From: a bacterium
GTDB taxonomy: Bacteria > SZUA-182 > DTGQ01 > JAFGSM01
NCBI GenBank assembly: GCA_049472315.1
Contig: JBLIRN010000013.1
Location: 9,562-73,561 of the forward strand
DNA: 64,000 nucleotides
Direction of reading: 5' to 3'
Position numbers and translations under genes: made by a program. Below, piece after piece: positions 46,690-64,000 of this stretch; position 1 is the stretch's first letter, and every line of letters starts with the position of its first letter. The notes under the pieces were generated by a model. That model had not been told where the DNA came from. It did not search any database and saw nothing but the letters and a program-made list of their open reading frames with translations.

Positions 46690-47041
46690 TGCGCTGTCTT
46701 CCCTGAGACCGCGCATCCCCCTATTCGTTCATAAACTATCATTCCCCACAGTATCCCAGAAGGTTTTTAGTAGCTGCGCTTTTTTTCGCCAATGTATTGC
46801 CCAGTTCCAGCATAATTCAAATTAACCATAGGTAACAATTGATTATTTCTCCCAAGAGGCATACAATAATTCCCGAAGGGTTTTGTTTGGCATCGACGCT
46901 GTCCCGGCGGGTGAGGGCCGCGATGCCGTTGATACCGCTCAAATGAAGCGGGAACCAGCCGATTTACGGGATATGTGAGAGGAATCCTCTATTCGTGGGG
47001 TCGGGGTGGTCCCACGTAGCATACATACAGAAAAGGGAAAC

Positions 47042-49762
47042 ATGATACAGACATTACTTACAAAGATTATCGGGAGCAAGAACGAGCGCGAATTGAAACG
47101 TCTCCAGGAATACGTGGACCGCATCAATGTACTGGAGCCGGAGATCCAAAAGCTCAGTGATGAAGACCTGCGGGCGAAGACGGAGCGGTTCAAGGAATAC
47201 TACCGCAAGCACATGGACCTCTTCAAGGCGGGCGAGGGGATCACCGAGGAGTATTTCAGGGACCTGAACAAGCTCGATCTCGATGAAAAGCTCGAGTTTG
47301 AGCGTATCGAGAAGAAGATCCTGGATGAAGAGAAGGCCGTGCTGGAGGATCTGCTTCCCGAGGCCTTTGCCGTGGTCAGGGAGGCGGCCAAACGCACCCT
47401 CAGGATGCGCCATTTCGATGTCCAGCTCATGGGAGGGGTGGTGCTTCATGAGGGGAAGATCGCCGAGATGGCAACCGGTGAAGGAAAGACACTGGTGGCG
47501 ACCCTCCCGGTGTATCTTAATGCCATAGCCGGCAAAGGGGTGCACGTGGTCACGGTGAACGACTATCTGGCCAAGAGGGACAGCGAATGGATGGGTCAGG
47601 TATACAGATTTCTCGGGCTTTCCGTGGGGATCATCCAGCACGATATGGACGATGAGGAGCGCACAAAGGCGTATCAATCGGACGTGACGTACGGGACCAA
47701 CAACGAGTTCGGATTCGATTACCTGCGCGACAACATGAAATTCGACCTGAAGGATTACGTGCAGCGGGAGCACTACTACGCCATCGTTGACGAAGTGGAC
47801 AGTATCCTCATCGATGAGGCGCGGACCCCTCTCATCATCTCCGGTCCTGCGGAGCAGGCGGAGACGGACGATTACTACCGGGTCGACCGGATCATCCCCA
47901 GGCTCAGCAAGGGTCGGCCCCTGCGAGGCGAGGAGGACAAGGAGGAGGACGGGGACTATCAGGTGGATGAGGAGAAGAAGGCGGTCTTCCTTACGGAGCA
48001 GGGCAGGAGGAAGGTGGAGCGCCAGTTGGGGATAAAGGACCTGTACGAGTCCGAGGAGGGGGTGGACGGCATGGAGTCGGCCAAGCACCTCTCCCTCATC
48101 CACAAGGTGGAGCAGTCGCTCAAGGCGCATGAAATCTTCAAGCGGGATGTGGATTACGTGGTAAAGGAGGGAGAGGTGATCATCGTGGATGAATTCACCG
48201 GCCGCCTCATGCCGGGAAGGCGTTACAGCGATGGTCTCCACCAGGCCCTGGAGGCGAAGGAGAAGGTGAAGATCGCCCGGGAGAACCAGACCCTCGCATC
48301 CATCACCTTCCAGAACTACTTCCGGCTGTACAAGAAGCTCGCCGGAATGACCGGCACCGCAGACACCGAGGCCATGGAGTTCCGCAAGATCTACAACCTC
48401 GACGTGGTGGTGATACCCACCAACCGACCCCTTATACGCGCCAATTACGCGGATGTGATCTACCGCACCGAGGATGAGAAGTTCAAATCGGTGGCGGATG
48501 AGATAGAGGAATGCAACCAGGTGGGACGTCCGGTCCTGGTGGGCACCATTGCCATCGAGAAATCGGAGCGGCTCCACGAGTTGCTCTCCAAGAGGGGAGT
48601 CCCCCACCACGTGTTGAACGCGAAGTACCATGAGAAGGAGGCGGAGATCATCGCCCAGGCGGGCCAGAGGGGAGCGGTCACCATATCCACCAACATGGCG
48701 GGGCGAGGCACGGACATCGTCCTGGGTGAGGGGATCGCCGAGCAGGGGGGACTCCATGTCATCGGCACGGAACGGCACGAGAGCAGGCGCATCGACAACC
48801 AGCTTCGCGGACGTTCCGGCCGCCAGGGAGATCCGGGATCATCCCGCTTCTATCTTTCCCTCCAGGACGACCTGCTGCGCATATTCGGCTCCGAGATGAT
48901 ATCCAGGATCATGTCCGGCCTGGGCATGGACGACGGCCAACCCATCGAGCACCGGATGGTCACCAAGGCCATCGAGCGGGCCCAGGCGCGGGTGGAAGGG
49001 ATCCACTTCGACGCTCGAAAGCACCTCCTGGAATACGATGACGTGATGAACAAGCAGCGGGAGGTGATCTACGAGCAACGACGCATGGTACTGGAGAGCG
49101 CATCGGTCAAGAACGTGCTGTACGATATGATCGAGGAGATGATCGAGGATTGTGTCGACCAGCATACCAGCCCCCGGTCCTATGCGGAGGATTGGGACCT
49201 CAAGGGCCTCAAGGGTGAGCTTCTCAGGAGGTTCGGGTTTCTCTGGGAGCCTGATCCGGAGAGGCTCAGGGATGTTACCCAGGCGCAGTTCAAGGAGGAC
49301 GTGCATAACGCCATCATCCAGCAATACGAGGGCAGGGAGAAGAATATCGGCAGCGCCACCATGCGCCACCTCGAAAAGATGATCATGCTCTCCACCATCG
49401 ATACCCTGTGGAAGGACCATCTGTATGCCATGGATCACCTCAAGGAGGGGATCGGCATGCGCGGGTACGGTCAGAAGGATCCCTTGATAGAGTACAAGAG
49501 GGAAGGGTTCGACATGTTCCAGGAGATGATCTGGATGATCAAGCAGCAGACCGTGACCCACCTGTTCATGATCCAGTCGGTACGGGAGGAGGAGGAGAAG
49601 GAGCGGCAGCGGAGGATGAAAGTGGCCCAGCAACTGGAGGCGGCAAAGAAGGCGGGGAGTTTTTCCCAGCCCCAGCAGAAACGAAAGGAAAAAAAGGTCG
49701 GACGCAACGAGCCCTGCCCGTGCGGGAGCGGGATGAAATACAAAAAGTGCTGTGGACGATAG
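47042..49762 (+). CDS. secA: Preprotein translocase ATPase SecA
   Basis: Full-length SecA including the C-terminal zinc finger ([14 protein letters not shown]). Confidence 0.95.
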
Positions 49763-49774
49763 GGAGCAGAGGAA

Positions 49775-50686
49775 ATGGATGAAGAGCACAAGGAAGGGAA
49801 TACCACCGAGGATCACTCCGTCAAGATAGCCGGCATTCAGATGGTGTGTCACCAGGAGACCGCCAGGAACCTGGAAAAGGCCCTCGGGCTCATCGACATG
49901 GCCGTGGAACAGGGTGCGCGGATCATATGCCTGCAGGAGTTCTTTCACACCCCCTGGTTTCCAGCCAGTGCGGACGAGGAAAATTTCAGGTTCGCCGAGG
50001 AGATATCGGGGCCCGTGGTGAGCGGCTTACGGAAGAAGGCGCGGGAAAAGGGGGTGGTGCTTGTTTCCCCCATCTTCGAGAAGGCCATGGACGGGCTCAA
50101 CTTCAGCACCACGGTGGTCATCGATGCGAATGGAAAGATTGCAGGGAAATATCGCAAGAACCACGTCCCCAACGTGCCCTGCTGGGAAGAGGGCTACTAC
50201 TGCGGCAGGGGGGATCTGGGATTTCCCGTTTTTCCCACCAGGTGGGGGGTCATAGGGGTGCAGATGTGCTGGGATAATTTTTATCCCGAGGGCTCCCGGA
50301 TCCTCGCCCTGAAAGGGGCCCAGGTCATCTTCTGCCCCACCGCGTGCGCCTTTGCCTCCCAGGGCAAATGGGAGAAGGTGATCGCGGCGAATGCCGTGAA
50401 CAACGCGGTTTTCTGTTTCCGGGTGAATCGGGTGGGAAAGGAAAACGGCCTTGATTTCTATGGACAGAGTTTTTGCGTTGATCCCGAAGGGGAGTTCATC
50501 GCAGGCCCGAGCGGCCTCACCGACGCCGTGGTCCTCGCCTCGGTGGATCTGACCAGGATAGAGGACACCCGCCGGACCTGGAATTTTTTCAAGGAACGAA
50601 GGCCTGAGATCTACGGCGAGGTTGTGGGCAGGGACTGGCTCAAGGCCTTGAACAACATGGTGACCAAGAAAAGGGGGGGGGCGTGA
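49775..50686 (+). CDS. Carbon-nitrogen hydrolase family protein (N-carbamoylputrescine amidase or nitrilase-like)
   Basis: Catalytic triad context E...K...C (the C in GVQMCWD). 303 aa. Confidence 0.8.
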   Translation: MDEEHKEGNTTEDHSVKIAGIQMVCHQETARNLEKALGLIDMAVEQGARIICLQEFFHTPWFPASADEENFRFAEEISGPVVSGLRKKAREKGVVLVSPIFEKAMDGLNFSTTVVIDANGKIAGKYRKNHVPNVPCWEEGYYCGRGDLGFPVFPTRWGVIGVQMCWDNFYPEGSRILALKGAQVIFCPTACAFASQGKWEKVIAANAVNNAVFCFRVNRVGKENGLDFYGQSFCVDPEGEFIAGPSGLTDAVVLASVDLTRIEDTRRTWNFFKERRPEIYGEVVGRDWLKALNNMVTKKRGGA

Positions 50687-51543
50687 TGGCACGTATTGGT
50701 TGGCATGTGCAAGGGTGTGCGGTCATGATACTCGCATTTCTATGTCTTTGGGCGGGAGGCAGGTGCGCTGCCCAGTATTACGGGCTCTTCGGTACAAGTC
50801 TGGGGTATTTGAATCAGCCCTCTCTCACCACGGTTCCCTTTCAATGGGGACAATCCTGGCCGTCGTCCCAGTTGGGTCAACCGTGGTCAACGCCCCAGTG
50901 GGGACAATCCTGGTCGGGGTTCGGTATGACCCCCTATTCGGATATCAGGGTACTCCCCTCACTCTCTTATGGGGGCTCCACGCAGACCAAGACGATGAAG
51001 GAGGGCGAACTGATCGTGGGGTTCAGCGGTCAGGTCAGCATCGAGCACCACACAGGCGGCCCACAGACCAACATAGCGGAGATCAACGAGCTTATCGAGC
51101 AGTTCGGGATCTATGAGATCCGCGCCTCACCCTCGGGGACATTCCATGTCCTCAAGTTCCCCGATGGTCAGGATGTGGAGGAGGTGCACCAGGCATTTTC
51201 CGGTATCACCGGGTATGTGGAGTACACCGAACCCAACTACATCACCAGAAGGGCACACTCCGGCTCCTCATCCATCACCTATCCCACTGCAGGGACCGGT
51301 TTATCCCTCTGGTCACAGGGTTCCCCGCTCCAGTCGTTCTCCCCTTCCATCACTTTTCCCTCTTACAATACGGGCACGGGCCTCGGCACCGGATGGGGGA
51401 TCCAGCCGTTTACCTACTCCCAATCCTCGTTCGGCGGATGGAACCAGTCGTTTCTGCAGCCCTCATACGGCACGTTCCGGTCGCCCTCATACAGCTCCTT
51501 CTGGCAGCCGTCGTCCGGCTCCTTCACTCGGTCCTGGTTGTAA
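50686..51543 (+). CDS. Secreted low-complexity (W/Q/S/G/Y-rich) protein with a central subtilase-propeptide (inhibitor I9-like) domain
   Basis: Signal peptide, QWGQSW repeats, a core ending ...GITGYVEYTEPNY that is typical of S8 pro-domains, and a Ser/Gly/Tyr-rich tail. Confidence 0.6.
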   Translation: MARIGWHVQGCAVMILAFLCLWAGGRCAAQYYGLFGTSLGYLNQPSLTTVPFQWGQSWPSSQLGQPWSTPQWGQSWSGFGMTPYSDIRVLPSLSYGGSTQTKTMKEGELIVGFSGQVSIEHHTGGPQTNIAEINELIEQFGIYEIRASPSGTFHVLKFPDGQDVEEVHQAFSGITGYVEYTEPNYITRRAHSGSSSITYPTAGTGLSLWSQGSPLQSFSPSITFPSYNTGTGLGTGWGIQPFTYSQSSFGGWNQSFLQPSYGTFRSPSYSSFWQPSSGSFTRSWL

Positions 51544-51579: not shown

Positions 51580-52413
51580 ATGGAGCGATTTAAGGAAGGG
51601 ACATTGGATCACACGCAACCCATCATCACGCTGACAACGGATTTCGGCATCAGCGGACCCTTCGTGGGGAGCATGAAGGGGGTCATACTGGAGATAAACC
51701 CCCGGGCACAGATCATTGACATCTCCCACGGGATTGACCCCTTCGACCTCCTGGATGCAGCCTTTCTGGTAGGCTGCGCCTATTCCTATTTCCCCTCCGG
51801 CACCATCCACTGTATCGTTGTCGATCCGGGGGTGGGGGGCGAGAGGCGGCCCATTGTCGCACTCAGCACTCGATACTCGTTCGTGGCCCCGGACAACGGT
51901 GTGCTCTCCTATATCTACGAGCAGGAATCGATCGAGCGGGTCATTCATTTGAAGGAACCCGCCTACTTTCTTCCGCGGATCAGCCGGACCTTTCACGGGA
52001 GGGATATCTTTGCCCCGGCTGCAGCCTGGCTCTCGCGCGGGATCGATCCGCAGCGCATGGGGCCTACGATAGATGACTATGTGCGCTGCGATATTCCGCG
52101 ACCGAGGGTCTCTATGAACGGCACCCGCATCCATGGTCGCGTGATTCACATCGATATATTCGGAAACCTGGTGACGAACATCCCGTTTTCCATGGTTGAA
52201 CATCGTCTGGGACCCGGGGAATCGGGATTTACTGTGACCATCAAGGATATTGTCATCGATCGCCTCTGCACGGCCTATGAGGATGCGGGGAAGGGCAAAA
52301 CCGGGGTCATCATCGGAAGCCACGGCTATATCGAGCTTTTTTCCAATCAGGATTCCCTGGCCAAGAGGGGCGGCATTGCAAAGGGTGAACCGCTCGAGGT
52401 GATCCTCGAGTGA
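51580..52413 (+). CDS. SAM hydroxide adenosyltransferase family (DUF62; fluorinase/chlorinase-like SAM hydrolase)
   Basis: IITLTTDFG ... IVVDPGVGGERRPI motifs. Confidence 0.75.
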   Translation: MERFKEGTLDHTQPIITLTTDFGISGPFVGSMKGVILEINPRAQIIDISHGIDPFDLLDAAFLVGCAYSYFPSGTIHCIVVDPGVGGERRPIVALSTRYSFVAPDNGVLSYIYEQESIERVIHLKEPAYFLPRISRTFHGRDIFAPAAAWLSRGIDPQRMGPTIDDYVRCDIPRPRVSMNGTRIHGRVIHIDIFGNLVTNIPFSMVEHRLGPGESGFTVTIKDIVIDRLCTAYEDAGKGKTGVIIGSHGYIELFSNQDSLAKRGGIAKGEPLEVILE

Positions 52414-52425
52414 GCAGGAGGAAGC

Positions 52426-53784
52426 ATGGATCGTTCATTGACGAATAAGGCCAGGGAGGTCCTGGACCGCTGCCTGAAGGGAAAGGCTACGGCAGGGGAG
52501 ATATGCCTCATGGAATCAAGAAACATTCATCTCGAGGTGGAGCGCGGTGACATAGATGTCATCAAGAATTCCCAGGACCGGCTGTTGGCGGTGCGCGTAC
52601 TCAGGGGCCATTCCCTCGGGTTTGCGTATTGCACCGATTTTTCACCCTCCTCCCTGGATATGCTGGTGGATCAGGTCATGAACTCGGCGGCAAGCACCGA
52701 TGAGGACCCCCACTATCACTTTCCTGCCTCCCGGAAGGGAACAACCCCCGTGACCATGGACGAGCGGTTGTCCTCTGTTCCCCTCACGGAGAAGTTCAAG
52801 CGATGCCAGGAGATGGAGCGGGCTGCCTACCAGACCGATTCCCGGATCAAGGTTGCGCGGCAGTTTTCCTATTCGGAGACCATCACCGACGTCTACCTGG
52901 TCAACTCCCACGGCCTCGAAGTGTCCTACGGCAAGAGTGCCTGCTCCACCTTTGCCATGGTGGTGGCCCAGGAGGGCTCGGATGCACAGATGGCATGGGA
53001 GATGGATATACAGACCTCCTATGACCGCCTGAGATGGGACGAGGTGGGCCAGGGGGCTGCGCACAAGGCCCTTGCCCTGCTCGGCGCCCGGTCAATCGGC
53101 ACCCGCAGGGCGCCGGTTATATTTTCTCCACCTGTGGGAATCAGCATCATGGGCGCCTTTTCACCTGCCTTTTTTGCCGATGCGGTTCAGAAGGGCCGTT
53201 CCCTCATGGCGGGCCGCCTGGGACAGATCGTGGCCTCCCCTGCAGTGAGCCTGGTGGATAACGGGCTCCTTGAGGGGGGCCTTGCCACCGCCCCCTATGA
53301 CGGGGAGGGGGTGCCCACGCAGAAGACGGTCATTGTGGACAAGGGGAGGCTTGCCACCTACCTCTACGACAGCTATACCGCGCATAAGGACGGGGTAGCG
53401 TCGACCGGAAACGGGGTCAGGCCCGGATCGAAGTCCCAGCCCCAGGTGGGGGCCACGAATTTCTACGTCGAAAAGGGGACATGCACCGAGGACGAGCTTC
53501 TCGCCGACATCCGGGAGGGGTTCTATGTGACGGATGTCATGGGCGCGCATACCATCAACCCGATCTCAGGTGATTACTCCCTGGGTGCCACCGGTCACTG
53601 GATCAAGGGGGGGCGGCGGGAATACCCGGTGCGGGGAGTGACCATCTCCGGAAACGTGCTGGATATGCTCACAAACATCTCCCGGTGCGCGGATAACCTC
53701 CGCTTCTACGGCCCCTTCGGCGCCCCCACCATACTGGTCTCGGGGATGATCATTGCGGGTGAGGAGACCGGTGCAGAGGGGTAA
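52426..53784 (+). CDS. TldD/PmbA-family metalloprotease
   Basis: 452 aa with PmbA_TldD N- and C-terminal domains (…GDYSLGATGHWIKGG…). Confidence 0.8.
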   Translation: MDRSLTNKAREVLDRCLKGKATAGEICLMESRNIHLEVERGDIDVIKNSQDRLLAVRVLRGHSLGFAYCTDFSPSSLDMLVDQVMNSAASTDEDPHYHFPASRKGTTPVTMDERLSSVPLTEKFKRCQEMERAAYQTDSRIKVARQFSYSETITDVYLVNSHGLEVSYGKSACSTFAMVVAQEGSDAQMAWEMDIQTSYDRLRWDEVGQGAAHKALALLGARSIGTRRAPVIFSPPVGISIMGAFSPAFFADAVQKGRSLMAGRLGQIVASPAVSLVDNGLLEGGLATAPYDGEGVPTQKTVIVDKGRLATYLYDSYTAHKDGVASTGNGVRPGSKSQPQVGATNFYVEKGTCTEDELLADIREGFYVTDVMGAHTINPISGDYSLGATGHWIKGGRREYPVRGVTISGNVLDMLTNISRCADNLRFYGPFGAPTILVSGMIIAGEETGAEG

Positions 53785-53967
53785 ACAAGATACTCGTAAT
53801 GGGTAACGCATGTTATCCTGATCATGGGATTCCCCTTCAAAGAGCCTTTTTATTGCATCACAAACAATGGTAAAAGGGTTGAGAATATACTGGCCCAGTT
53901 CTCCTCAAAAAATGCCCTTGAATCAATGAATTAAAAAAAATGATAGAAAATTTTCTAAAAAATTTTC

Positions 53968-53996
53968 TTGACAAACCTTACCTTCCTAGTTATGAT
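53968..53996 (+). promoter_or_regulatory. Consensus sigma-70 promoter (TTGACA-N17-TATGAT) with an A/T-rich UP-like element, inside the AT-rich island
   Basis: Read directly. It lies about 1.1 kb upstream of the giant protease ORF. Confidence 0.4.
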
Positions 53997-55109: not shown

Positions 55110-58100
55110 ATGAAAGGTTCAGGCATAAGTAACGTAAGCGATAAAGGAAGGCTTCATGTGATTATTGTTGTTCTCTTTATGCTGATGTTATTTGTGGCTT
55201 CCGGTTTCATAGAGTGTATCCCCATGATGTTTTTTGAACGGATGTCTCTGAAGAAAACCGCCATGGCAGAAATAATGGGTTTTATGGATAATAATCCCTT
55301 GTATTCTCCTCAAGAGACCGGGCTTAAGGATGGCAAGGATGACAAGGATGGCAAGGGTGGCAGGCATGATGATGAGGATCTTTCAGTTTCACCTACCAGT
55401 CATGATTTCGGAGACGTCCAGATAGGGACAAGAGGGTCAGTAACCATAACCTTGACGAATACGGGCGATGATAGAATCAGAGTAAAAAAAATACGAATAA
55501 AAAATAAAGAATTCAGCCATAATGCGGAGATCCCATTAAGTATCCCTCCCTTTGGCAGTGTCAGTTTTGAGGCAATGTTCACCCCCGCTGATGAAGGTAT
55601 AACAACAGGTATCTTGAAGATCACCAGTGATAAGCATCATGGTCATGACCTGGAAGTAATCCTGACCGGCACGGGAATCCCATCACCGGGTGCTCGATTA
55701 GATCCTTCTCTCTTACATTTTACCTTAGAGCCGTCTGATCCTCCTGCTGATCTTCAATCCATCCTTTCTAATATAGGCAAGGGTATTTTGTCCTACCAGA
55801 TAATCTCGGTCGAGGAGACAGGCAATCCTCTCGGTATTCTTTCCGAACAAAAAATAAGTCTCAAAAGCGGGGCAAAGACCGCTCCTGTAAACACCTCACT
55901 CATCTACAGTCAAGGCAGTTACAACAACAGCTTTGCCCCCGGGCGGATAATTGTGGGGCTAAAGGACGGCGCTGAATCATTTGCCGATGCCGACCTATTA
56001 AACAATATTGGAGCCGGTTCCATGCGGGAGCTGGCCACAGCCAGAAGGCCTTGGACCGGCTCGCGGTCATACTTCGGCAGGAAGTTGTTCCTGTTATCCA
56101 TGGATAATCAAACCGAACAGGGCGTCATCGATGCCATCGCTATACTCAAGGAAGATGCCAATGTGGCCTATGTGCAGCCGGACTTCAGGGTCAGCGCCAT
56201 AGGCGTCATACCGAATGACCCCGACTTCGGCTTACTCTATGCCATGCACAATGAAGGGCAGACCGGGGGGAGCCCGGATGCGGATATCGATGCACCCGAG
56301 GCATGGGATACGCACACAGGAACAGGAAATATTCTGGTCGGTGTTATTGACACGGGGATCGACTATACCCATCCGGACCTTGTGGACAATATCTGGACGA
56401 ATCCCGGCGAGATACCGGGTAACGGGATCGATGACGACGGCAACGGGTATGTTGACGATGTGTATGGCTGGGATTTCTGCAACGATGACAACGATCCGTG
56501 GGATGACCATGGTCACGGCACCCATTGTGCCGGAACAATAGCCGCGACAGGGAATAACGGCATAGGCGTGGTCGGCGTATCATGGAAGGCCGGGCTGGTC
56601 GCCCTGAAGTGTTTGGATTGGAGCGGATCGGGATGGACTTCGGATGCGGTTGATGCAGTGGCCTATGCCAACGCCATGGGGATTCCGGTCACCAGCAACA
56701 GCTGGGGTGGTGGCCCTTATGATCAGGCACTGAAGGACGTGATCGACGCTGCCGGCAGCCTTGGCTACCTGTTTGTTGCCGCGGCGGGAAACAGTGGGAT
56801 GAACAATGATGTGCTTCCCGATTATCCATCCGGTTATGATTGTGAAAACATCATAGCCGTTGCTGCCACGGACCATAATGACCAACTCGCCTCTTTTTCC
56901 AATTACGGTCCGATCACGGTGGATCTGGGCGCACCCGGGGTTGATATCTATAGCTGTCTGCCTTTAGAAGGCTATGCGTACAAATCGGGCACCTCCATGG
57001 CAGCGCCGCATGTCGCCGGTGCAGCGGCCCTGGTATGGAGCCACAATCCCGGTTTATCGGGTGCGCAGGTAAAGGCTGCAATACTGGAGGGTGTGGATGT
57101 CGTGCCCTCCCTTACGGGGATGGTCCTGAGTGAAGGAAGGCTCAATGTGAACCAGGCGCTCGAGAAGACAGGATTGCCCTGGCTTTGGGCCGCGCCCGTG
57201 GAGCCGGGCACATTGAATCCCGGTGCAGGACAACCGATCACGGTAACCGTCGATCCCGAGGGACTGGTTGCCGGGCAGTGGACCGGGCTGATTACCCTTT
57301 CGACCAATGATCCTGTAAATCCCACGCCGACCATCGAGGTCATAGCGGATATAAGCGGATGCCGGACCCTTTCGGTCTCACCCGATTTCCATGATTTCGG
57401 CGAGGTCTGGGTCGGTGGGGACTCATCGGTGACCATAACCTTGAAAAACGGCTGTAACGACAGGACCACGGTGAGTGCGATTACGACGGACAAAGGGGTG
57501 TTCGGCCACGATGCGGTTCTGCCTCTGGAGGTCCCGCCCTTCGGCAGTGTCAGCTTTGAGGCGACGTTCGCTCCCGTGGATGAAGGTCCGGCAAAAGGCA
57601 TCATGACGATCACCAGCGATGCGCAGGATAATCCTTTGCTTGAGGTGATCCTCTCCGGCACAGGTTTATTTCCTCCGGAGATCGAAATTGACCCGGAGAG
57701 TTTCTCGGAGGTCCTGGACCTTGGAGATCGCGTGACCAGGACACTGACGATTACGAACAGCGGCGGAGACGATCTGATATTTGATATTTCGATTGAAGGT
57801 GTGGAAGGTCTGAGTGTGAAGGTGGAGGATGTTGTTTCTTCTCAACCATCCAAGGCATTCATATCTTCTGATGTGAGGCCGGGATTTCGATACGAGAATA
57901 ACTCTACACCCGGATATCAGTATAACGTTAATGATCTGCACAACAGCAACCTTGGGATAAGGCTGGATCGCGTCATAAACGTCCTGGTCATGTCACCGGT
58001 GAGCGATTATGATTGGGTGGCTGAAAATTTTGGTGCCAATATGACGGATGTGACCTTTGAAACATACGACATAGGCTATGACGTACCGGATTTGGAATAT

Positions 58101-61100
58101 CTTCAAGCCTTTGATGTGGTCTTGATGTTTAGAAATTTTCCCGCTGAAAATTCTCCCGGAGTTGGTGATCGGCTGTACGAGTACGTGATGTCAGGCGGCA
58201 ATCTGGTGATGGGGAATTTCTATTGGATGGAGCGGGATTGGGGCATGGGGTGGGGTGCCTTGGAAACGATCGATCCGGTTTATGAAGGAGCCTGTGACGG
58301 CTCGTATGCCAAGTTGGATACGAAGAGCATCATCCCCCATCCTTTAACCACTGGACTCACCGAATTGGGCTGTATAGGGCGTGGCGGGCCTGTGACCGTG
58401 CGCGATGGTGCGACGGCTGTGGCCTGGTGGACGGACGGTGATCCCCTGCTCGTGTTTAACGAGCCGGCTGGTCGAATTACGGCTGTCACCGTATTTCCGG
58501 CAGCCCCTTTTTATGAACCGGTTGTGGGGGATTTCTACCTGCTGTGGGAAAATGCACTCAAGTGGACCGCCGAAGGAGGAAAGAGGTGGCTATCGGTGGA
58601 TCTATCATCGGGCAGAATACCGGCAGGCATGTCCCTGGCCATAGAGGTGAGCTTTGATGCCATGGATATGGTTGCAGATACGTATCTTGGCAACCTGAAC
58701 ATCAGCCACAATGCACTCAATGCGACCGATCCCCTATCCGTTCCCTGCACGATGGTTGTCAATGCAGTAAAACACCTCGATGTCTCACCTGCAGTACACG
58801 ACTTTGGAAAAGTCTGGACAGGGACAAACGGCTCCGTAACCCTGACCCTGACGAATTCGGGCAATGGTGCAACCACGGTACGAGGCATTGCAATAGACAA
58901 CCTGGCGTTCGGACACGATGCAGTTCTGCCCCTGGAGGTTCCGCCGTTTGGCAGTGCCGGCGTTGAGGCGACCTTTGCTCCTCTGGATGATGGTCCGGCA
59001 ACAGGTATCATGACGATCACCAGTGATGCAGCGGACAATCCTTCGCTTACGGTGACCCTTTCCGGCACAGGTGTTCTTCCTCCGGAGATCCGGGTTACTC
59101 CGGAGGGTTTCTCGGAGGTCCTTGATCCCGGGGATAGTGCCGTAAGGACGCTGACGATTACGAACATCGGCGGGGAGGATCTGGAATTTGGTATGAATAT
59201 TGAGATGCTGGGTGCGCCTGAAGCGTTGTCGGCGGATGCAGGGATAGTGAACATCCTTGTCTGGAACAAGTATTCGGATAACTCTCCAACCGGGGAATAT
59301 GTAAATACCCTGAATGCCATTGCAGCCTATTGTACGGATTTCACGGCTGAGCCCACTGATGTGACCGATCCTATTGCATTACAGGCATTATTGACGGGTA
59401 AGGAGGTCTTTTTGATTCCCGAGCAAGAGCGGGCCTTGCCTGACATTACGACGATCGGCGCGTCGTGGGCGCCGGTGCTTTCCGATTTTGTGTCCTCGGG
59501 CGGAACGGTGATTTTTTGCGGGGAGTTCTGGGCCAGTAATGGGTTCATCACGAGTACAGGACTAATGGAAGTGGCGTTAGTACGTACATCGATAAATGTC
59601 CCATTAACCGTAGTTGCCCCGGATCATCCATTGGCGGAGGATGTGCCGGGAAGCCTCAGGGGAGAGAATGCCACAGGATGGTATGATGTCAGGACACCGG
59701 ACGCGGACGTGGTTGTTGTGGAAAGTGCCTCATATTACCCTGTTGTTGCATCAAGGGGCCTTGGCTCGGGAAATGTGGTGTTATTGGGCTTCGATTATTA
59801 TTTATACAATAACGATATGGCACGCATCATTGCCAATGCCGTCCAGTTCGGCCCGACATGGCTCTCGGTCAAACCCGTATCAGGCATCGTTCCACCGGGA
59901 TTGTCGATAGAAATAGCCGTGAGCTTTGATGCCAGGGATATGGTGGCAGATACGTATCTCGCCAACCTGAACATCAGCCACAATGCACTCAATGCGCCCG
60001 ATCCCATATCCGTTCCCTGCATGATGGGTGTCAATGCAATGAAACTTCTCGATGTCACACCTGATAGCCATGATTTTGGAAACGTTTTTGTGGAAGAAAC
60101 CGAATCCGTAATCCTCACCCTGACGAATTCGGGCAATGATACGTGCACGGTAAGCGCCATTGAAATAGACAATCCGGTCTTCACCCACGATGCCATGATA
60201 CCCCTGGAGGTCCCGGCCTTTGGCAGTGTCAGCTTTGAGGCAACGTTCGCTCCTGAGGATAAAGGCCCGGCAACAGGCATCATGACGATCACCAGCGATG
60301 CGGATGATAATCCGTCAATTGAGGTGACCCTTTCCGGGACAGGTGTTTTCCCTGCGTTAATCGAAATTACCCCGGAGATACTCTCAGAGGTTTTGGATCT
60401 TGGAGATATTGTCACCAGGACACTCACTATTACAAATAGTGGTGGCATTGATCTGGAGTTTGCTATCAGTGGGCCCACCATAGAAAGTATGGCGGGCGTC
60501 GAGCCATACACGTATGATTCAAGCCATTATGAAAGGATTCCCAAAGGTTCGGAAGACCCGCGTATAGGGCAGATAGTTCCGTATGATATGGGTGGCCCGG
60601 ATGTCTTTGGATATAGATGGGTCGATTCCGACGAGCCGGGTGGCCCTGTGTTTGAATGGATTGATATCGTTGATCCGGCCAACTGGCTCTACATTTCGGA
60701 TGCTGATGATGATTATCAGGAACTGCCGCTCAGCTTCCCGTTCAGCTTTTACGGGGTTGAATATACCAGCATCTTTGTGGGGAGCAACGGGTATATAACC
60801 TTTGACCAGGGAAGCTACGAATGCTCTCATTCCCCGATTCCTTCACCTTACATGCCCGCCATGGTTGCAGGATTCTGGAGCGATCTTTATCCAGGGGTAT
60901 TGGGGGACATCTACTTTAAGGATCTTGGCGACAGGGCGATCGTTCAATTTGAAAATGTGATGCATATCAGCGGCATGGGCATATATACCTTTCAAATGGT
61001 GCTTCATGCTCATGGCACCATCAATCTCTATTATAAGGAGATGATGGGCGACGCATCCTTCTCAACCGTAGGTATCCAGGATGAATGGGGAGCTGACGGG

Positions 61101-64000
61101 CTCGGGATCGCCTATAACACACCCTATTTAAAGGATCTCCTGGCAATCCGCATTTCTTCCGGTCCTTCATGGCTCAGGGTTTCACCCGGATCAGGCATCG
61201 TCCCTCCCGACCGGAGCGCCAATGTGGATGTGACCTTTGATGCCACCGGTCTTGTGGCAGGGGTATATGAAATTACGATGGAGATAGGCCACAATGCCAT
61301 AAATGCCCCTGATCCCATGCCTGTCCCCTGCACGCTGGCGGTGAATAGCTTTAGAAGCCTCGATGTTTCCCCTGCCGGTCATGATTTCGGAGATGTATTT
61401 ATAGGGGCCAGCGATTCCGTGGCCATCACGTTGACGAACAAGGGTAATCACATAACCACAGTGAGTGCTATTATTCTGAATAATTCGGAGTTCAGCCATG
61501 ATGCAATGACTCCCCTGGAGATACCGCCCTTTGGCAGCGTCAGTTTTGATGCCTCGTTTACTCCTGAAGACGTAGGCCCGGAAACAGGCGTCGTGACGAT
61601 CACCAGTGATGCAAAGGATAATCCCATTCTTACGGTTACCCTTTCCGGTATGGGTTTGTTTCCTCCGGAGATCATGATCAGCCCGGATAGCTTCTCCGAG
61701 ATGTTGGATCTCGGGGGTCGTGTCACCAGGACACTGACCATCACCAACACGGGTGTCAGTGATCTTGAATTCGATATTGTCGGTGAAAGGGTGGATGCAC
61801 TCGATGATACGACAACTGACGGCCGGGAGATTGATCTGAATGATGCGATCAATGTATTGGTCCTTTCCACCTGCGATTATGACTGGGTAGCTGCAAATTT
61901 CGGCGCCAACATGACGGATATGGCATTTGAAACCATGGACATAAATCTTGATATTCCGGATTTGGAATATCTCCGATTATTTGATGTCGTTTTGCTCTTT
62001 CAATGCTGGACATCCGATGTCTCCCCCCAGGTGGGTGATGCATTGTATGATTATGTGACGTCCGGCGGCAATCTGGTCCTCGGGCTGGAATATTGGGCCA
62101 CCAGTGAGATAGGACTGGGGTGGGGTGCCCTTGCAACCATCGATCCACTCTATGGTGGAATGTCTGATTACACCTACGAAGAGCTGGATACGGAGAGCAT
62201 CGTACCGCATCCCTTGACCGCGGGGCTCACCGAATTGGGCTGTATTGCGCGCGGCGGGCCTGAGACCGTGCGTGAAGATGCAACAACAGTGGCATGGTGG
62301 ACGGACGGCGATCCCCTGATCACGTTTAACGAGCCGGGGGGAAGAATCACCGCCGTTACGGCGTTGCCTTCAGAGCCCCAGTATAACCCGGTTATGGGGG
62401 ATTTCTATCTGCTGTGGGAAAATGCGCTGAAATGGACGGCTGAGGGGGGAACACCTCAATGGCTCTCGGTAATACCGGAATCCGCGACCGTCATGCCCGG
62501 CGCATCCATAGCAATAGATGTCACCTTTGACGCCACGGATATGGTTGCAGGTACGTATCGTGCCAACCTGAACATCAACCACAATGCACTCAATGAGCCC
62601 AATCCCTTGCCTGTTCCCTGCTCAATGCTTGTCAACGGCGTAAAACGACTTGCGGTGTCACCTTCCAGCATTGATTTTGGCAATATGTTTGCGGGAGGAA
62701 TGAAGGTGGTAACCATGACCTTGACCAATGCCGGCAATGATACGACTATGGTGAGTGAGATCAGCACGGATAATCCGGTGTTCGGTGTTAAGGCAATTCT
62801 GCCCATGAAGGTCCCGCCCTTCGGCAGTACAACCTTTGATGCCCTATTCATACCCTTCGATCTGGGTACTGAAACAGGCACCATGGTGATCAGCAGCGAT
62901 GCAGAGGATAATCCGACACTCGTCGTTGATCTTGCCGGTACGGGCGTACCTCCTCCGGAGATCAGTGTTCACCCGGACGGCTTCTCCGAGAAATTGGATC
63001 CGGGATATGCGGTCACAAGGACGATGACCATAACGAACAGCGGCGGATATGATCTGGAGTTTGCCATCAGCGGACCCACCATAGCGGGTATGGCGGGCAT
63101 CGAGCCGTACCGGTATGATTCGACCCATTATGAAAGGATTCCCAAGGGTTCGGAAGACCCGCGTATAGGGCAGCCAGTCGTGTATGATAGCGGCGGCCCG
63201 GATGGCTTCGGATACACGTGGGTCGATTCCGACGAGCCGGGTGGCCCTGTGTTTGAATGGATAGATATCGCTGATCCGGCCAACCGGCTCTACATATCGG
63301 ACGCCGATGATGATTTTCAGGAGGTGCCGCTCAGCTTCCCGTTCAGCTTCTACGGGGTTGAATATACCAGCATTTTTGCAGGAAGCAACGGCTACATCAC
63401 CTTCGGCCTGGGCAGCTACGAATGCTCTCATTTCCCGATTCCGTATCCCTATATGCCCGCCATGGTAGCAGGATTCTGGAGCGATCTCTGCCCTGCGATG
63501 TCAGGAGACATCTACTTTAAGGATCTTGGCGACAGGGCGATCGTTCAATTTGAAAATGTGACGCATATCAGTGACATAGGGGTGTACACCTTTCAAATGG
63601 TGCTTTGTGCGGATGGGGCCATTCATCTCTATTATAAAGAGCTGATGGGCAACGCGGCCATGTCGGCCGTAGGAATCCAGGATGCATGGGGAGTTGACGG
63701 GCTCGGGATCGCCTATAATACCCCCTATCTAAAGGATTTCCTGGCAATCCGCATTGCCGCCGGTCCATCCTGGCTCAAGGTTTCACCCGGATCGGGCATC
63801 GTTCCTCCCGGCAAGAGCGTCGATGTGGATGTGACCTTTGATGCCACCGGCCTTATGGCGGAGGTATATGAACTCACCATGGAGATAGGCCACAATGCCA
63901 CAAATGCACCGAGTCCCCTACTTGTCCCCTGCGCATTGGGGGTGAATACGATGAGACGACTCGATGTCTCCCCTGCCGGTCATGATTTCGGCAATGTATG
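55110..64000 (+). CDS. Giant secreted S8 subtilase-family multidomain protein (more than 2960 aa, partial, running off the window). It carries an N-terminal signal anchor, an S8 pro-domain with D/H/S catalytic core, at least 8 ASH/choice-of-anchor-D-like Ig domains, and two pairs of duplicated about 200-aa modules.
   Basis: GAGGGAGG Shine-Dalgarno sequence and ATG at 55110. No stop codon for 8.9 kb. DTGID / HGHGTHCAG / GTSMAAPHVAG triad motifs. Repeated HDFG.V..G.S...T.TN.G......FEATFAP.D.GP..G.MTITSDA.DNP modules. Confidence 0.85.
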   Translation, partial: MKGSGISNVSDKGRLHVIIVVLFMLMLFVASGFIECIPMMFFERMSLKKTAMAEIMGFMDNNPLYSPQETGLKDGKDDKDGKGGRHDDEDLSVSPTSHDFGDVQIGTRGSVTITLTNTGDDRIRVKKIRIKNKEFSHNAEIPLSIPPFGSVSFEAMFTPADEGITTGILKITSDKHHGHDLEVILTGTGIPSPGARLDPSLLHFTLEPSDPPADLQSILSNIGKGILSYQIISVEETGNPLGILSEQKISLKSGAKTAPVNTSLIYSQGSYNNSFAPGRIIVGLKDGAESFADADLLNNIGAGSMRELATARRPWTGSRSYFGRKLFLLSMDNQTEQGVIDAIAILKEDANVAYVQPDFRVSAIGVIPNDPDFGLLYAMHNEGQTGGSPDADIDAPEAWDTHTGTGNILVGVIDTGIDYTHPDLVDNIWTNPGEIPGNGIDDDGNGYVDDVYGWDFCNDDNDPWDDHGHGTHCAGTIAATGNNGIGVVGVSWKAGLVALKCLDWSGSGWTSDAVDAVAYANAMGIPVTSNSWGGGPYDQALKDVIDAAGSLGYLFVAAAGNSGMNNDVLPDYPSGYDCENIIAVAATDHNDQLASFSNYGPITVDLGAPGVDIYSCLPLEGYAYKSGTSMAAPHVAGAAALVWSHNPGLSGAQVKAAILEGVDVVPSLTGMVLSEGRLNVNQALEKTGLPWLWAAPVEPGTLNPGAGQPITVTVDPEGLVAGQWTGLITLSTNDPVNPTPTIEVIADISGCRTLSVSPDFHDFGEVWVGGDSSVTITLKNGCNDRTTVSAITTDKGVFGHDAVLPLEVPPFGSVSFEATFAPVDEGPAKGIMTITSDAQDNPLLEVILSGTGLFPPEIEIDPESFSEVLDLGDRVTRTLTITNSGGDDLIFDISIEGVEGLSVKVEDVVSSQPSKAFISSDVRPGFRYENNSTPGYQYNVNDLHNSNLGIRLDRVINVLVMSPVSDYDWVAENFGANMTDVTFETYDIGYDVPDLEYLQAFDVVLMFRNFPAENSPGVGDRLYEYVMSGGNLVMGNFYWMERDWGMGWGALETIDPVYEGACDGSYAKLDTKSIIPHPLTTGLTELGCIGRGGPVTVRDGATAVAWWTDGDPLLVFNEPAGRITAVTVFPAAPFYEPVVGDFYLLWENALKWTAEGGKRWLSVDLSSGRIPAGMSLAIEVSFDAMDMVADTYLGNLNISHNALNATDPLSVPCTMVVNAVKHLDVSPAVHDFGKVWTGTNGSVTLTLTNSGNGATTVRGIAIDNLAFGHDAVLPLEVPPFGSAGVEATFAPLDDGPATGIMTITSDAADNPSLTVTLSGTGVLPPEIRVTPEGFSEVLDPGDSAVRTLTITNIGGEDLEFGMNIEMLGAPEALSADAGIVNILVWNKYSDNSPTGEYVNTLNAIAAYCTDFTAEPTDVTDPIALQALLTGKEVFLIPEQERALPDITTIGASWAPVLSDFVSSGGTVIFCGEFWASNGFITSTGLMEVALVRTSINVPLTVVAPDHPLAEDVPGSLRGENATGWYDVRTPDADVVVVESASYYPVVASRGLGSGNVVLLGFDYYLYNNDMARIIANAVQFGPTWLSVKPVSGIVPPGLSIEIAVSFDARDMVADTYLANLNISHNALNAPDPISVPCMMGVNAMKLLDVTPDSHDFGNVFVEETESVILTLTNSGNDTCTVSAIEIDNPVFTHDAMIPLEVPAFGSVSFEATFAPEDKGPATGIMTITSDADDNPSIEVTLSGTGVFPALIEITPEILSEVLDLGDIVTRTLTITNSGGIDLEFAISGPTIESMAGVEPYTYDSSHYERIPKGSEDPRIGQIVPYDMGGPDVFGYRWVDSDEPGGPVFEWIDIVDPANWLYISDADDDYQELPLSFPFSFYGVEYTSIFVGSNGYITFDQGSYECSHSPIPSPYMPAMVAGFWSDLYPGVLGDIYFKDLGDRAIVQFENVMHISGMGIYTFQMVLHAHGTINLYYKEMMGDASFSTVGIQDEWGADGLGIAYNTPYLKDLLAIRISSGPSWLRVSPGSGIVPPDRSANVDVTFDATGLVAGVYEITMEIGHNAINAPDPMPVPCTLAVNSFRSLDVSPAGHDFGDVFIGASDSVAITLTNKGNHITTVSAIILNNSEFSHDAMTPLEIPPFGSVSFDASFTPEDVGPETGVVTITSDAKDNPILTVTLSGMGLFPPEIMISPDSFSEMLDLGGRVTRTLTITNTGVSDLEFDIVGERVDALDDTTTDGREIDLNDAINVLVLSTCDYDWVAANFGANMTDMAFETMDINLDIPDLEYLRLFDVVLLFQCWTSDVSPQVGDALYDYVTSGGNLVLGLEYWATSEIGLGWGALATIDPLYGGMSDYTYEELDTESIVPHPLTAGLTELGCIARGGPETVREDATTVAWWTDGDPLITFNEPGGRITAVTALPSEPQYNPVMGDFYLLWENALKWTAEGGTPQWLSVIPESATVMPGASIAIDVTFDATDMVAGTYRANLNINHNALNEPNPLPVPCSMLVNGVKRLAVSPSSIDFGNMFAGGMKVVTMTLTNAGNDTTMVSEISTDNPVFGVKAILPMKVPPFGSTTFDALFIPFDLGTETGTMVISSDAEDNPTLVVDLAGTGVPPPEISVHPDGFSEKLDPGYAVTRTMTITNSGGYDLEFAISGPTIAGMAGIEPYRYDSTHYERIPKGSEDPRIGQPVVYDSGGPDGFGYTWVDSDEPGGPVFEWIDIADPANRLYISDADDDFQEVPLSFPFSFYGVEYTSIFAGSNGYITFGLGSYECSHFPIPYPYMPAMVAGFWSDLCPAMSGDIYFKDLGDRAIVQFENVTHISDIGVYTFQMVLCADGAIHLYYKELMGNAAMSAVGIQDAWGVDGLGIAYNTPYLKDFLAIRIAAGPSWLKVSPGSGIVPPGKSVDVDVTFDATGLMAEVYELTMEIGHNATNAPSPLLVPCALGVNTMRRLDVSPAGHDFGNV

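What the first reader, a model, noticed from the sequence alone, without database searches (positions are those of the whole stretch)
50686..51543. Stand-alone secreted protein: a subtilase pro-peptide (I9 inhibitor-like) core flanked by Trp/Gln/Ser-rich and Ser/Gly/Tyr-rich low-complexity arms
After a signal peptide come QWGQSW-type repeats. Next is an about 80-aa segment (ELIVGFSGQVSIEHH...IAEINELIEQFGIYEIRASPSGTFHVLKF...GITGYVEYTEPNYI) with the hallmark ...V.Y.EPNY ending of S8 pro-domains. Last is a long S/G/Y/F/T-rich tail. Free-standing I9-like domains act as protease inhibitors or chaperones. This one lies 3.5 kb upstream of a giant S8 protease and shares low-complexity aromatic character with the Gly/Tyr protein at 15.9 kb. 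It may be a dedicated inhibitor or chaperone, or a matrix-anchoring partner of the protease.
Basis: partly seen in the sequence, partly recalled or inferred. Interest (0 to 1): 0.6.

Follow-up and report, generated by a model that had tools for sequence, protein, structure and literature searches.

The report
Stand-alone protease pro-domain with sticky arms
This gene encodes an exported protein made only of the 'pro-piece' that subtilisin-type proteases normally carry, flanked by two uncharged, aromatic-rich floppy arms. It belongs to a tiny uncharacterised family in an uncultured bacterial lineage, is not a protease despite its database name, and shows no conserved link to the giant protease nearby.

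Summary
ORF 50686-51543 (+, 285 aa) has four parts: a Sec-type signal peptide, a charge-free aromatic/polar N-arm with two QWGQSW repeats, an ~85-aa core, and a charge-free S/G/T/Q/aromatic C-arm. The core matches Pfam PF22148 (fervidolysin N-terminal prodomain; 34 bits against a cut-off of 21), and so do all 7 scanned relatives. [quoted passage not shown] The gene is under purifying selection (dN/dS 0.33).

An exhaustive search of 1.84 billion representatives found only about 10 relatives. All are short and stand-alone, and all come from uncultured 'bacterium' MAGs.

The best-conserved segment is a tail after the E-P-N motif, [YL][IV]R[RK]AH. It lies in the register where subtilase propeptide C-termini occupy the S4-S1 pockets. 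Here, however, the chain continues for 94 more residues.

The gene sits in a conserved SecA / CN-hydrolase / X / SAM_HAT / PmbA block in five genomes. The giant S8 protease follows only in this window, behind a 1.3-kb AT-rich spacer. It has its own pro-region and shows no similarity to X.

Most likely X is a propeptide-mimic regulator or docking module for an unidentified subtilase. The dedicated-partner idea is not supported. This is a new variant of a known kind, of moderate interest.

The parts
50686..50772 (+). Signal peptide (aa 1-29), with a predicted signal peptidase I site C-A-A|Q
   Evidence: Hydrophobic core at residues ~8-22. A29 and Q30 are invariant across relatives. AF2 models residues 5-28 as a helix. 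No lipobox. No dedicated predictor was run.
50773..50982 (+). N-arm (aa 30-99): charge-free, aromatic/Q/S/G/P-rich and predicted disordered. It contains two QWGQSW repeats and the conserved Y-S-D-I-R-V-x-P-S motif.
   Evidence: Composition: 1 K/R, 1 D/E and 13 aromatic residues in 70 aa. 21-nt repeat at 50842 and 50896. pLDDT 33-40. P91 is nearly invariant. dN/dS 0.36.
50983..51237 (+). Folded core (aa 100-184): fervidolysin-type subtilase pro-domain, acidic, ending in E182-P-N184
   Evidence: PF22148 at E=3.8e-8, 34 bits against a cut-off of 21; 7/7 members hit it. AF2 pLDDT 78-92, topology beta-(hairpin)-alpha-beta-beta-alpha-beta. 1r6v matched with probability 1.0 but ranked 11th. dN/dS 0.26.
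51238..51261 (+). Conserved substrate-like tail (aa 185-192, Y-I-T-R-R-A-H-S). R188, A190 and H191 are invariant or nearly so.
   Evidence: This is the best-conserved segment in the family: 71-86% identity, against 44-55% for the core and 19-40% for the arms. Of the 11 members that include the tail, nine have exactly six residues from the E-P-N cap to His and two (the window protein and P0002) have seven. That is the register of propeptide C-termini in BPN' and PfSUB1 (PMC6993865). The assignment to P4-P1 is an inference.
51262..51543 (+). C-arm (aa 193-285) plus stop codon: charge-free, S/G/T/Q/P-rich and aromatic-rich, predicted disordered. It has three tandem 8-aa units near the end and finishes ...S-W-L.
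   Evidence: Composition. 24-nt x3 repeat at 51449-51520. pLDDT <40. W237 invariant and G230 nearly invariant. The C-terminal residue is W, F, Y or L in every complete member. dN/dS 0.33.
47006..50686 (+). Context: SecA (47006-49762) and CN-hydrolase (49775-50686), upstream in the same apparent operon
   Evidence: Pfam. Gene gaps of 12 bp and -1 bp. The order is conserved in L001, L006, L012 and L014.
51580..53784 (+). Context: SAM hydroxide adenosyltransferase-family gene (51580-52413) and PmbA/TldD-family peptidase (52426-53784), downstream in the same apparent operon
   Evidence: Pfam. Gene gaps of 36 and 12 bp. No convincing terminator between X and SAM_HAT.
55110..64000 (+). Giant S8 protease (>=2,963 aa, runs off the window). 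It is listed because the finding invokes it; no link to the target was shown.
   Evidence: PF00082 at 1e-59 plus many ASH/HYDIN-type Ig-like domains. Start context. Own sub-threshold PF22148 pro-region at aa 272-306. No similarity to X. No homolog in any related locus.

Best explanation
X is a Sec-exported, catalytically inert, stand-alone subtilase-propeptide mimic.

[quoted passage not shown] By analogy with propeptides and known stand-alone mimics, that fold packs against the catalytic domain of an S8 protease. The E-P-N motif would correspond to the helix-capping E-x-D/N. The invariant tail, R-(R/K)-A-H, would lie substrate-like in the S4-S1 pockets.

X would therefore bind and restrain a cognate subtilase in the periplasm or outside the cell, or act as a docking partner for it. 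That subtilase has not been identified. The two uncharged aromatic/polar disordered arms would act as sticky tethers or presentation arms.

Unlike known mimics, the chain does not end at the tail. The junction resembles an uncleaved zymogen junction and may itself be cut after His191.

Shown: the domain identity, the architecture, selection on the gene, the family and its synteny.

Inferred: protease binding, the tail register, the role of the arms, and export.
For: - PF22148 scores above the curated cut-off in the target, and it is the only family hit in 7/7 members.
- The AF2 core is confident with the expected topology, and the arms are disordered. Fervidolysin 1r6v is among the fold matches at probability 1.0.
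- There is no S8 catalytic domain and no other Pfam or NCBIfam hit.
- Purifying selection acts on all regions.
- The family keeps the full architecture at 32-42% identity.
- The tail is the most conserved segment. In 9 of the 11 members that include it, it ends exactly six residues after the cap, the same spacing as BPN' E69/D71 to Y77 and PfSUB1 E209/D211 to D217 (PMC6993865).
- A natural precedent exists in L019. A stand-alone PF22148 lipoprotein lies 6 bp upstream of a pre-pro-S8, and its tail (YRVRKAR) mimics that protease's junction (YIVRKS|AIPND).
- Characterised stand-alone mimics are potent subtilase inhibitors (PMC6993865).
Against: - No cognate protease was identified. The only S8 in the window is unrelated in its pro-region and its proximity is not conserved.
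- The fold search is not specific, because RRM and ACT domains rank above fervidolysin.
- The MSA for AF2 held only 7 sequences, and four of the five models were of low confidence.
- The cap Glu is Lys in two members and the cap Pro is Leu in one.
- The chain continues past the tail, unlike every characterised mimic.
- The gene sits in a housekeeping-type operon rather than beside a protease.
- There are no expression or biochemical data.
Confidence: 0.5

Rival explanations
1. Envelope or matrix structural protein. The charge-free aromatic/polar arms are the business end, through self-association, amyloid- or hydrogel-like assembly, or binding to polysaccharide or cell wall. The pro-domain-like core has been co-opted as a stable hub or interaction module with no role in protease control.
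For: - The arms make up about 57% of the mature protein and are under purifying selection (dN/dS 0.33-0.36).
- Their unusual composition is kept in all members, with position-specific invariant or nearly invariant residues W237, G230 and P91.
- Every complete member ends in an aromatic or Leu residue.
- The gene is co-transcribed with housekeeping and envelope-related genes (SecA operon), not with a protease.
- The ferredoxin-like fold is generic.
- The genome encodes another secreted low-complexity aromatic protein.
Against: - The strongest conservation is in the core and above all in the substrate-like tail, not in the arms.
- The core keeps pro-domain hallmark motifs (GELxV, EPN) well enough to pass Pfam's cut-off in all members.
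- AF2 sees no structure in the arms.
Confidence: 0.22
2. Propeptide-guided precursor. A subtilase recognises the core in trans and cleaves at the conserved R-(R/K)-A-H junction, releasing the C-arm as the functional product. The product might be, for example, a self-assembling peptide. The pro-domain would act like a leader or docking element.
For: - The junction lies in the register of autoprocessing sites, and the chain continues beyond it as in a zymogen (PMC6993865).
- The dibasic-containing motif is invariant.
- The C-arm is modular, with tandem 8-aa repeats that vary in copy number between orthologs.
Against: - It is purely inferential, and no such system is known to me.
- The conserved N-arm is left unexplained.
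- No cognate protease was found.
Confidence: 0.13
3. Dedicated inhibitor, chaperone or anchoring partner of the giant S8 protease 3.6 kb downstream.
For: - The two genes lie on the same strand 3.57 kb apart.
- The giant protein is the only S8 protease in the 64-kb window.
- SUB1-ProM-type mimics lie near subtilase genes (PMC6993865).
- The close relative's contig ends in a low-GC stretch after PmbA, so adjacency there cannot be excluded.
Against: - The genes are separated by two unrelated genes and a 1.3-kb AT-rich spacer with strong promoter-like sites, so they are separate transcription units.
- In L006, L012 and L013 the conserved block is followed by other genes, and no S8 or giant-protein homolog occurs in any related locus.
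- The protease has its own pro-region.
- X shows no similarity to it, in contrast to the control pair at 39% identity.
- The presumed protease junction F-R-V-S-A-I|G shares only the P2 Ala with X's tail (reading; inference).
Confidence: 0.1
4. Decayed remnant of an S8 protease gene, in which the pro-domain is left and the catalytic domain has been lost or scrambled. This would be consistent with NCBI's name 'S8 family serine peptidase'.
For: NCBI labels P0001 and P0002 as S8 family serine peptidases. The pro-domain is normally N-terminal to a catalytic domain.
Against: - dN/dS is 0.33, with an intact reading frame in all relatives.
- Length and architecture are conserved down to 32% identity.
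- There is no residual similarity to PF00082.
- The next gene starts 36 bp after the stop codon.
Confidence: 0.02

Closest known systems
Stand-alone subtilisin propeptide-like inhibitors of MEROPS family I9 and mimics: Pleurotus POIA1, yeast PBI2, Arabidopsis SPI-1, Toxoplasma MIC5 and Plasmodium SUB1-ProM (PMC6993865)
   Same: - A separate small gene product with the propeptide fold and no catalytic domain.
- A secretory signal, as in SUB1-ProM and MIC5.
- An E-x-N/D cap motif in the last strand, followed by a short substrate-like tail.
   Different: - All characterised examples listed in that paper are eukaryotic.
- They end at or near the tail, whereas X continues for 94 residues and also has a 70-residue N-arm.
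- X matches PF22148, not PF05922.
- X is not next to a subtilase gene in most genomes.
- Inhibition by X is untested.
Cis pro-domain of fervidolysin-type S8 proteases (Pfam PF22148; PDB 1r6v)
   Same: The sequence-profile match is above the cut-off. The same fold element is matched by Foldseek. The GELxV start and EPNY end motifs are present.
   Different: X is not followed by a catalytic domain. It is too diverged for any protease-attached pro-domain to reach E<=1e-3 in the exhaustive search.
Simple bacterial stand-alone PF22148 proteins found here (P0010, P0011, P0012; 104-199 aa)
   Same: Each has a signal peptide or lipobox plus the pro-domain only. P0011 is paired with an adjacent pre-pro-S8 whose junction its tail mimics.
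   Different: They lack the aromatic low-complexity arms and the R-R-A-H motif. Similarity to X is marginal (E about 5e-4 to 9e-4). They are also uncharacterised.
Secreted low-complexity self-assembling bacterial proteins such as curli CsgA (comparison from general knowledge only)
   Same: They are Sec-exported, polar/Gly/Gln-rich and aromatic-containing, with few charges and short degenerate repeats.
   Different: There is no sequence or Pfam similarity, no dedicated secretion or nucleator genes are nearby, and X has a folded pro-domain in the middle.

Membership tests
Pfam PF22148 Fervidolysin_NPro-like domain | HMM score above Pfam's gathering threshold | tested here: met
   34 bits against a cut-off of 21, E=3.8e-8, aa 105-184. 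7/7 family members match, and it is the only family matched.
Pfam PF22148 Fervidolysin_NPro-like domain | [quoted passage not shown] | tested here: met
   AF2 core at pLDDT 78-92 with that topology plus an extra hairpin. Foldseek matches 1r6v over 84 columns at probability 1.0, but at E=0.035 and rank 11 behind RRM and ACT folds, so the result is compatible but not discriminating.
Pfam PF22148 Fervidolysin_NPro-like domain | Lies N-terminal to an S8 catalytic domain in the same polypeptide (the usual context) | tested here: not met
   No PF00082 hit even at E<=10. The C-arm is low-complexity, and the next gene starts 36 bp after the stop codon.
Stand-alone propeptide-like subtilase inhibitors (MEROPS I9 type) | Separate gene product consisting of the propeptide fold without a protease domain | tested here: met
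Stand-alone propeptide-like subtilase inhibitors (MEROPS I9 type) | Match to Pfam Inhibitor_I9 (PF05922) | tested here: not met
   Not reported at E<=10 or at E<=0.1 for any member.
Stand-alone propeptide-like subtilase inhibitors (MEROPS I9 type) | Helix-capping E-x-D/N in the last strand, followed by a ~6-residue tail that reaches the active site | tested here: inconclusive
   E182-P-N184 is followed by 6 residues (7 in the window protein) ending in invariant A-H. The spacing equals that of BPN' and PfSUB1. The cap Glu is Lys in P0006 and P0013. No complex model could be made.
Stand-alone propeptide-like subtilase inhibitors (MEROPS I9 type) | Polypeptide ends at or near the tail, giving a free C-terminus in the active-site groove | tested here: not met
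   94 further residues follow His191.
Stand-alone propeptide-like subtilase inhibitors (MEROPS I9 type) | Demonstrated tight inhibition of a subtilase | not testable with these tools
   This needs biochemistry.
S8 family serine peptidase (the name given by NCBI) | Subtilase catalytic domain with an Asp-His-Ser triad | tested here: not met
   No PF00082 hit. A local phmmer search with the giant protease's S8 domain finds only the giant protein in the window.
Dedicated partner of the adjacent giant S8 protease | Conserved gene neighbourhood with the protease in relatives | tested here: not met
   L006, L012, L013 and L014 have no S8 domain in the stretch held, up to 10 kb each side where the contig allows. 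L001's contig ends too early to tell.
Dedicated partner of the adjacent giant S8 protease | Sequence relatedness of the stand-alone pro-domain to the protease's own pro-region, as in the L019 control pair | tested here: not met
   BLASTP best E=1.2. hhalign probability 0.3%. Control pair: 39% identity, E=3e-14.

The most novel reading that the evidence does not exclude
A subtilase pro-domain has been repurposed as a trans-acting docking 'leader'. In place of the catalytic domain it is fused to a charge-free aromatic low-complexity arm. A cognate exported subtilase binds the core and cleaves at the invariant R-(R/K)-A-H junction. That cleavage would release a self-assembling matrix or envelope peptide and leave behind a product-type inhibitor. 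If so, this would be a propeptide-guided maturation system for a structural peptide, built into the SecA operon of an uncultured lineage.
Probability: 0.1. Interest if true: 0.7.

Novelty: new variant of a known kind. Interest (0 to 1): 0.4.

Why it matters
According to the review in PMC6993865, stand-alone propeptide mimics are established protease regulators in fungi, plants and apicomplexan parasites. My searches of the held literature found no characterised bacterial example.

This family would be a bacterial version with two unusual additions. One is an uncleaved, zymogen-like junction that is more conserved than the fold itself. The other is a pair of uncharged aromatic disordered arms.

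If the family is shown to bind a subtilase, it would give a compact natural scaffold for specific subtilase inhibition. It would also show how disordered 'sticky' arms localise a protease regulator in a bacterial envelope.

There is a practical point as well: the public annotation 'S8 family serine peptidase' for these proteins is wrong, because they have no catalytic domain.

Tried and rejected
1. The indexed homology search with the 95-aa core alone found nothing because no candidate shared enough indexed words. That search was wasted.
2. The PDB sequence searches with the protein and with the family profile gave only chance hits or none.
3. NCBIfam gave no hit.
4. Foldseek against PDB returned generic ferredoxin-like folds, with fervidolysin only 11th. 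It therefore cannot discriminate a pro-domain from RRM or ACT folds.
6. The full family alignment was too divergent to seed collection scans. I used the SAM_HAT neighbour as an anchor instead and a sub-alignment for metagenomes. The latter gave one redundant locus.
7. The single-sequence AF2 model of the giant protease's pro-region plus S8 domain was unusable at mean pLDDT 32.6. Its own pro-domain therefore rests on a sub-threshold Pfam hit and on motifs read by eye.
8. Identifying the lineage from the literature failed. NCBI calls all these MAGs just 'bacterium', and the nearest named SAM_HAT hit was a Hydrogenedentota MAG at 39% identity.
9. Lipoprotein: rejected, because no Cys is preceded by a lipobox.
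10. SecM-like secretion monitor: rejected, because X lies downstream of secA and an arrest peptide there would regulate SAM_HAT. This is reasoning only.
11. RiPP-type precursor for the CN-hydrolase/SAM_HAT/PmbA genes: rejected. The same block exists without X in L014, and X has a Sec signal peptide.
12. Kinship with the Gly/Tyr protein: rejected.
Full report
**1. The observation**

The ORF is real: 50683 (GTG) or 50686 (ATG) to 51543 on the + strand, 285 aa from the ATG. The ATG overlaps the TGA of the upstream CN-hydrolase gene (TGATG) and follows a purine-rich stretch.

The protein has five parts.
- Signal peptide (aa 1-29): MARIGWHVQGCAVMILAFLCLWAGGRCAA|Q, with a hydrophobic core at ~8-22 and no lipobox.
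- N-arm (aa 30-99): 13 aromatic residues, 1 K/R and 1 D/E. It holds QWGQSW at 53-58 and 71-76.
- Acidic core (aa 100-184).
- Short tail (aa 185-192): YITRRAHS.
- C-arm (aa 193-285): rich in S, G, T, P, F and Q, with 2 K/R and no D/E over residues 190-285.

At DNA level the QWGQSW unit is a 21-nt repeat. The end of the C-arm holds three tandem 24-nt units.

The arms are far from typical. Among 14,807 sliding 70-aa windows in 40 likely proteins of the window, only this protein and the Gly/Tyr protein at 15897-16475 contain stretches with <=3% charged and >=15% aromatic residues.

**2. Domain identity**

Pfam gives one hit, PF22148 Fervidolysin_NPro-like: E=3.8e-8, 34 bits against a curated cut-off of 21, aa 105-184 aligned to profile positions 16-81 of 81. 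PF05922 (Inhibitor_I9) and PF00082 (S8) are not hit even at E<=10. NCBIfam gives nothing. All seven scanned family members match PF22148 and no other family.

The AlphaFold2 model used a 7-sequence alignment. The core (residues 101-188) has pLDDT 78-92 with strands at 101-113, 119-122/125-128, 144-147, 154-157 and 178-188, and helices at 131-140 and 164-172. [quoted passage not shown] Both arms have pLDDT below 40. Two caveats apply: the alignment is shallow, and the other four models were of low confidence.

**3. It is a real gene in a small family**

The indexed search found the protein itself and one 78%-identical protein. NCBI names both 'S8 family serine peptidase'.

dN/dS against that ortholog (L001) is shown below.

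| Region or gene | dN/dS |
|---|---|
| X, overall | 0.33 |
| X, core | 0.26 |
| X, N-arm | 0.36 |
| X, C-arm | 0.33 |
| SecA | 0.075 |
| PmbA | 0.15 |
| CN-hydrolase | 0.16 |

The exhaustive HMMER search of 1.84 billion representatives gave only 11 proteins at E<=1e-3. All are 104-305 aa and none is a protease. Six of them (four complete or nearly complete proteins and two fragments) share the architecture, as do three more from the profile search and one found by synteny.

The shared architecture is: signal peptide with A-x-A|Q, an aromatic/polar N-arm, the core, the tail, and an aromatic/polar C-arm ending in W, F, Y or L. In every member the arms have 0-2 K/R and 0-4 D/E, 16-25% aromatic residues and 53-68% S/T/G/Q/N/P. 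The core is net acidic in every member.

Identity to the window protein in the distant members, by region:

| Region | Identity |
|---|---|
| Tail (185-192) | 71-86% |
| Core | 44-55% |
| Arms | 19-40% |

A190, H191 and W237 are invariant. R188, G107, E108, G141, S148, S150, G151, F153, F158, V167, P91 and G230 are nearly so.

**4. Genomic context**

In the window the order is M23 peptidase, SecA, CN-hydrolase, X, SAM_HAT (DUF62 family), then PmbA/TldD. The gene gaps are 12, -1, 36 and 12 bp, and there is no convincing terminator after X.

The CN-hydrolase / X / SAM_HAT arrangement recurs in:
- L001, whose X is 78% identical;
- L012;
- L006, whose X is 36% identical;
- L007;
- L017, whose contig starts inside X, so only X / SAM_HAT / PmbA is seen.

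In L014, CN-hydrolase and SAM_HAT directly abut, with no gene between them. A concatenated SecA + CN-hydrolase + SAM_HAT + PmbA comparison places L014 outside the X-bearing loci. It is 72-75% identical to them, whereas they are 76-93% identical to each other. The simplest reading is a single insertion of X into an older conserved block, although a loss in L014 cannot be excluded.

X evolves much faster than its neighbours: 36-42% identity where they keep ~77%.

A shorter subgroup (P0008, P0014, P0015) lies in other contexts that are poorly sampled.

**5. The giant protease**

A stop-free frame runs from 55107 to the end of the window. The likely start is the ATG at 55110, after GGGAGG. The protein has an S8 domain (1e-59) with intact DTG/HGTH/GTSMA motifs and many ASH/HYDIN-type Ig-like domains.

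The protease lies 3.57 kb downstream of X, but several results argue against a partnership.
- SAM_HAT, PmbA and a 1.3-kb spacer of 39% GC lie between them. The spacer carries the best promoter-like sites of the region.
- The protease has its own pro-region: a sub-threshold PF22148 hit at aa 272-306, plus GRIIVGL...VAYVQPDF motifs.
- X has no detectable similarity to that region. The best BLASTP E-value is 1.2, and the hhalign probability is 0.3%.
- No related locus contains an S8 domain or any homolog of the giant protein in the stretch held, up to 10 kb each side where the contig allows.
- After PmbA, L006 has VanZ and glycosyltransferase genes, L012 has PIN-like and transposase-like ORFs, and L014 has an OMP-like ORF.
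- L001's contig stops 1.1 kb after PmbA in low-GC sequence that cannot be aligned with the window's spacer. That one case stays open.

A positive control shows what a true pair looks like. In L019 the 104-aa stand-alone PF22148 lipoprotein P0011 lies 6 bp upstream of a pre-pro-S8. P0011 is 39% identical to that protease's pro-domain (E=3e-14), and its tail mimics the protease's junction.

**6. Mechanism**

According to PMC6993865, subtilase propeptides and stand-alone mimics bind the catalytic domain in three ways. The beta-sheet packs on the catalytic domain. An E-x-D/N pair caps two of its surface helices. The C-terminal tail lies in the S4-S1 pockets in a substrate-like manner. In BPN' the cap is E69/D71 and the C-terminus is Y77. 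In PfSUB1 the cap is E209/D211 and the C-terminus is D217. In both cases the tail is six residues long.

In this family the cap-equivalent is E-P-N, followed by L/Y-I/V-R-R/K-A-H. Of the 11 members that include the tail, nine have six residues and two (the window protein and P0002) have seven. On this register the invariant R, A and H fall at P4, P2 and P1, and the variable R/K falls at P3. From general knowledge of subtilases, S4 and S1 are the dominant specificity pockets and the P3 side chain points to solvent, so this is the conservation pattern expected for a segment read by a subtilase cleft. This step is an inference.

I therefore favour a propeptide-mimic that binds an exported subtilase, as an inhibitor, regulator or docking module. 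The arms would act as tethers.

Because the chain continues past His191, the junction looks like an uncleaved zymogen junction. Cleavage there, releasing the C-arm, is a live alternative. So is a purely structural role for the arms. The cognate protease is unknown. The giant protease's presumed junction, F-R-V-S-A-I|G-V-I-P-N-D-P, shares only the P2 Ala with X's tail.

**7. Comparison with known systems, and novelty**

The closest characterised systems are the eukaryotic stand-alone propeptide-like inhibitors POIA1, PBI2, SPI-1, TgMIC5 and SUB1-ProM. X works like them in outline but fails several membership features. It has no PF05922 match, it does not end at the tail, it has no conserved protease neighbour, and inhibition is untested.

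My literature searches found no characterised bacterial stand-alone propeptide mimic and no paper that mentions PF22148.

The window itself is an ordinary chromosomal stretch of an anaerobe. The lineage is unnamed.

Verdict: a new variant of a known kind and of moderate interest.

Noticed in passing
window 15897-16475 (+): A 192-aa protein with a signal-peptide-like N-terminus and long GGYGG/LLGG repeats, with no Pfam hit. It is the only other protein in the window with charge-free aromatic-rich stretches, but it has no sequence similarity to the target.
   Followed up: partly
window 53785-55109: A 1.3-kb AT-rich (about 39% GC) non-coding spacer in a ~55% GC genome, directly upstream of the giant protease gene. 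It carries the best sigma-70-like matches of the region, for example TTGACA-17-TATGAT at 53968-53996. After PmbA the close relative L001 also turns low-GC, but its sequence cannot be aligned with this spacer.
   Followed up: partly
window 55110-64000 (+): A giant secreted S8 protease of at least 2,963 aa that runs off the window. It has an N-terminal ASH/HYDIN-type Ig-like domain before its own pro-region, an intact catalytic triad context, and then dozens of ASH/HYDIN/TMEM131-like Ig domains and BACON-like segments. Many long antisense ORFs in 56-63 kb are shadows of this repetitive gene.
   Followed up: partly
L019 239-1422: In an unrelated metagenome contig, a 104-aa lipobox protein consisting only of a PF22148 pro-domain (P0011) lies 6 bp upstream of a complete pre-pro-S8 protease with its own pro-domain. 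The two pro-domains are 39% identical, and the stand-alone protein ends (YRVRKAR) where the protease's junction lies (YIVRKS|AIPND). It looks like a natural bacterial inhibitor-protease gene pair.
   Followed up: partly
window 50686-51543; P0001, P0002: The public NCBI name for this protein and its ortholog is 'S8 family serine peptidase', although neither has a catalytic domain. The more distant ortholog P0006 is named 'hypothetical protein'.
   Followed up: yes
family alignment A5, C-termini: Every complete family member ends in an aromatic or Leu residue, usually x-W-[FYL] (SWL, LRF, YWY, YWF, LWY, NWF, STW, PIW). This recalls the C-terminal motifs read by PDZ-domain proteases or by the outer-membrane assembly machinery, but the residues upstream do not show an alternating beta-signal pattern. 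It remains unexplained.
   Followed up: no
L014 9076-10801 and L012 12534-13879: The SecA / CN-hydrolase / SAM_HAT / PmbA block is conserved across these uncultured MAGs even where X is absent, as in L014, where the genes abut. The region after PmbA differs in every genome: PIN-like plus transposase-like ORFs in L012, VanZ and glycosyltransferases in L006, and an OMP-like ORF in L014.
   Followed up: partly
window 19890-19986 (+); 10373-10545 (-): A tRNA-Sec gene, which implies selenoprotein use and fits an anaerobe, and a tRNA-Asp/tRNA-Val pair. Two paralogous DUF362 + 4Fe-4S proteins lie at 6947-8266 and 38154-39263.
   Followed up: no
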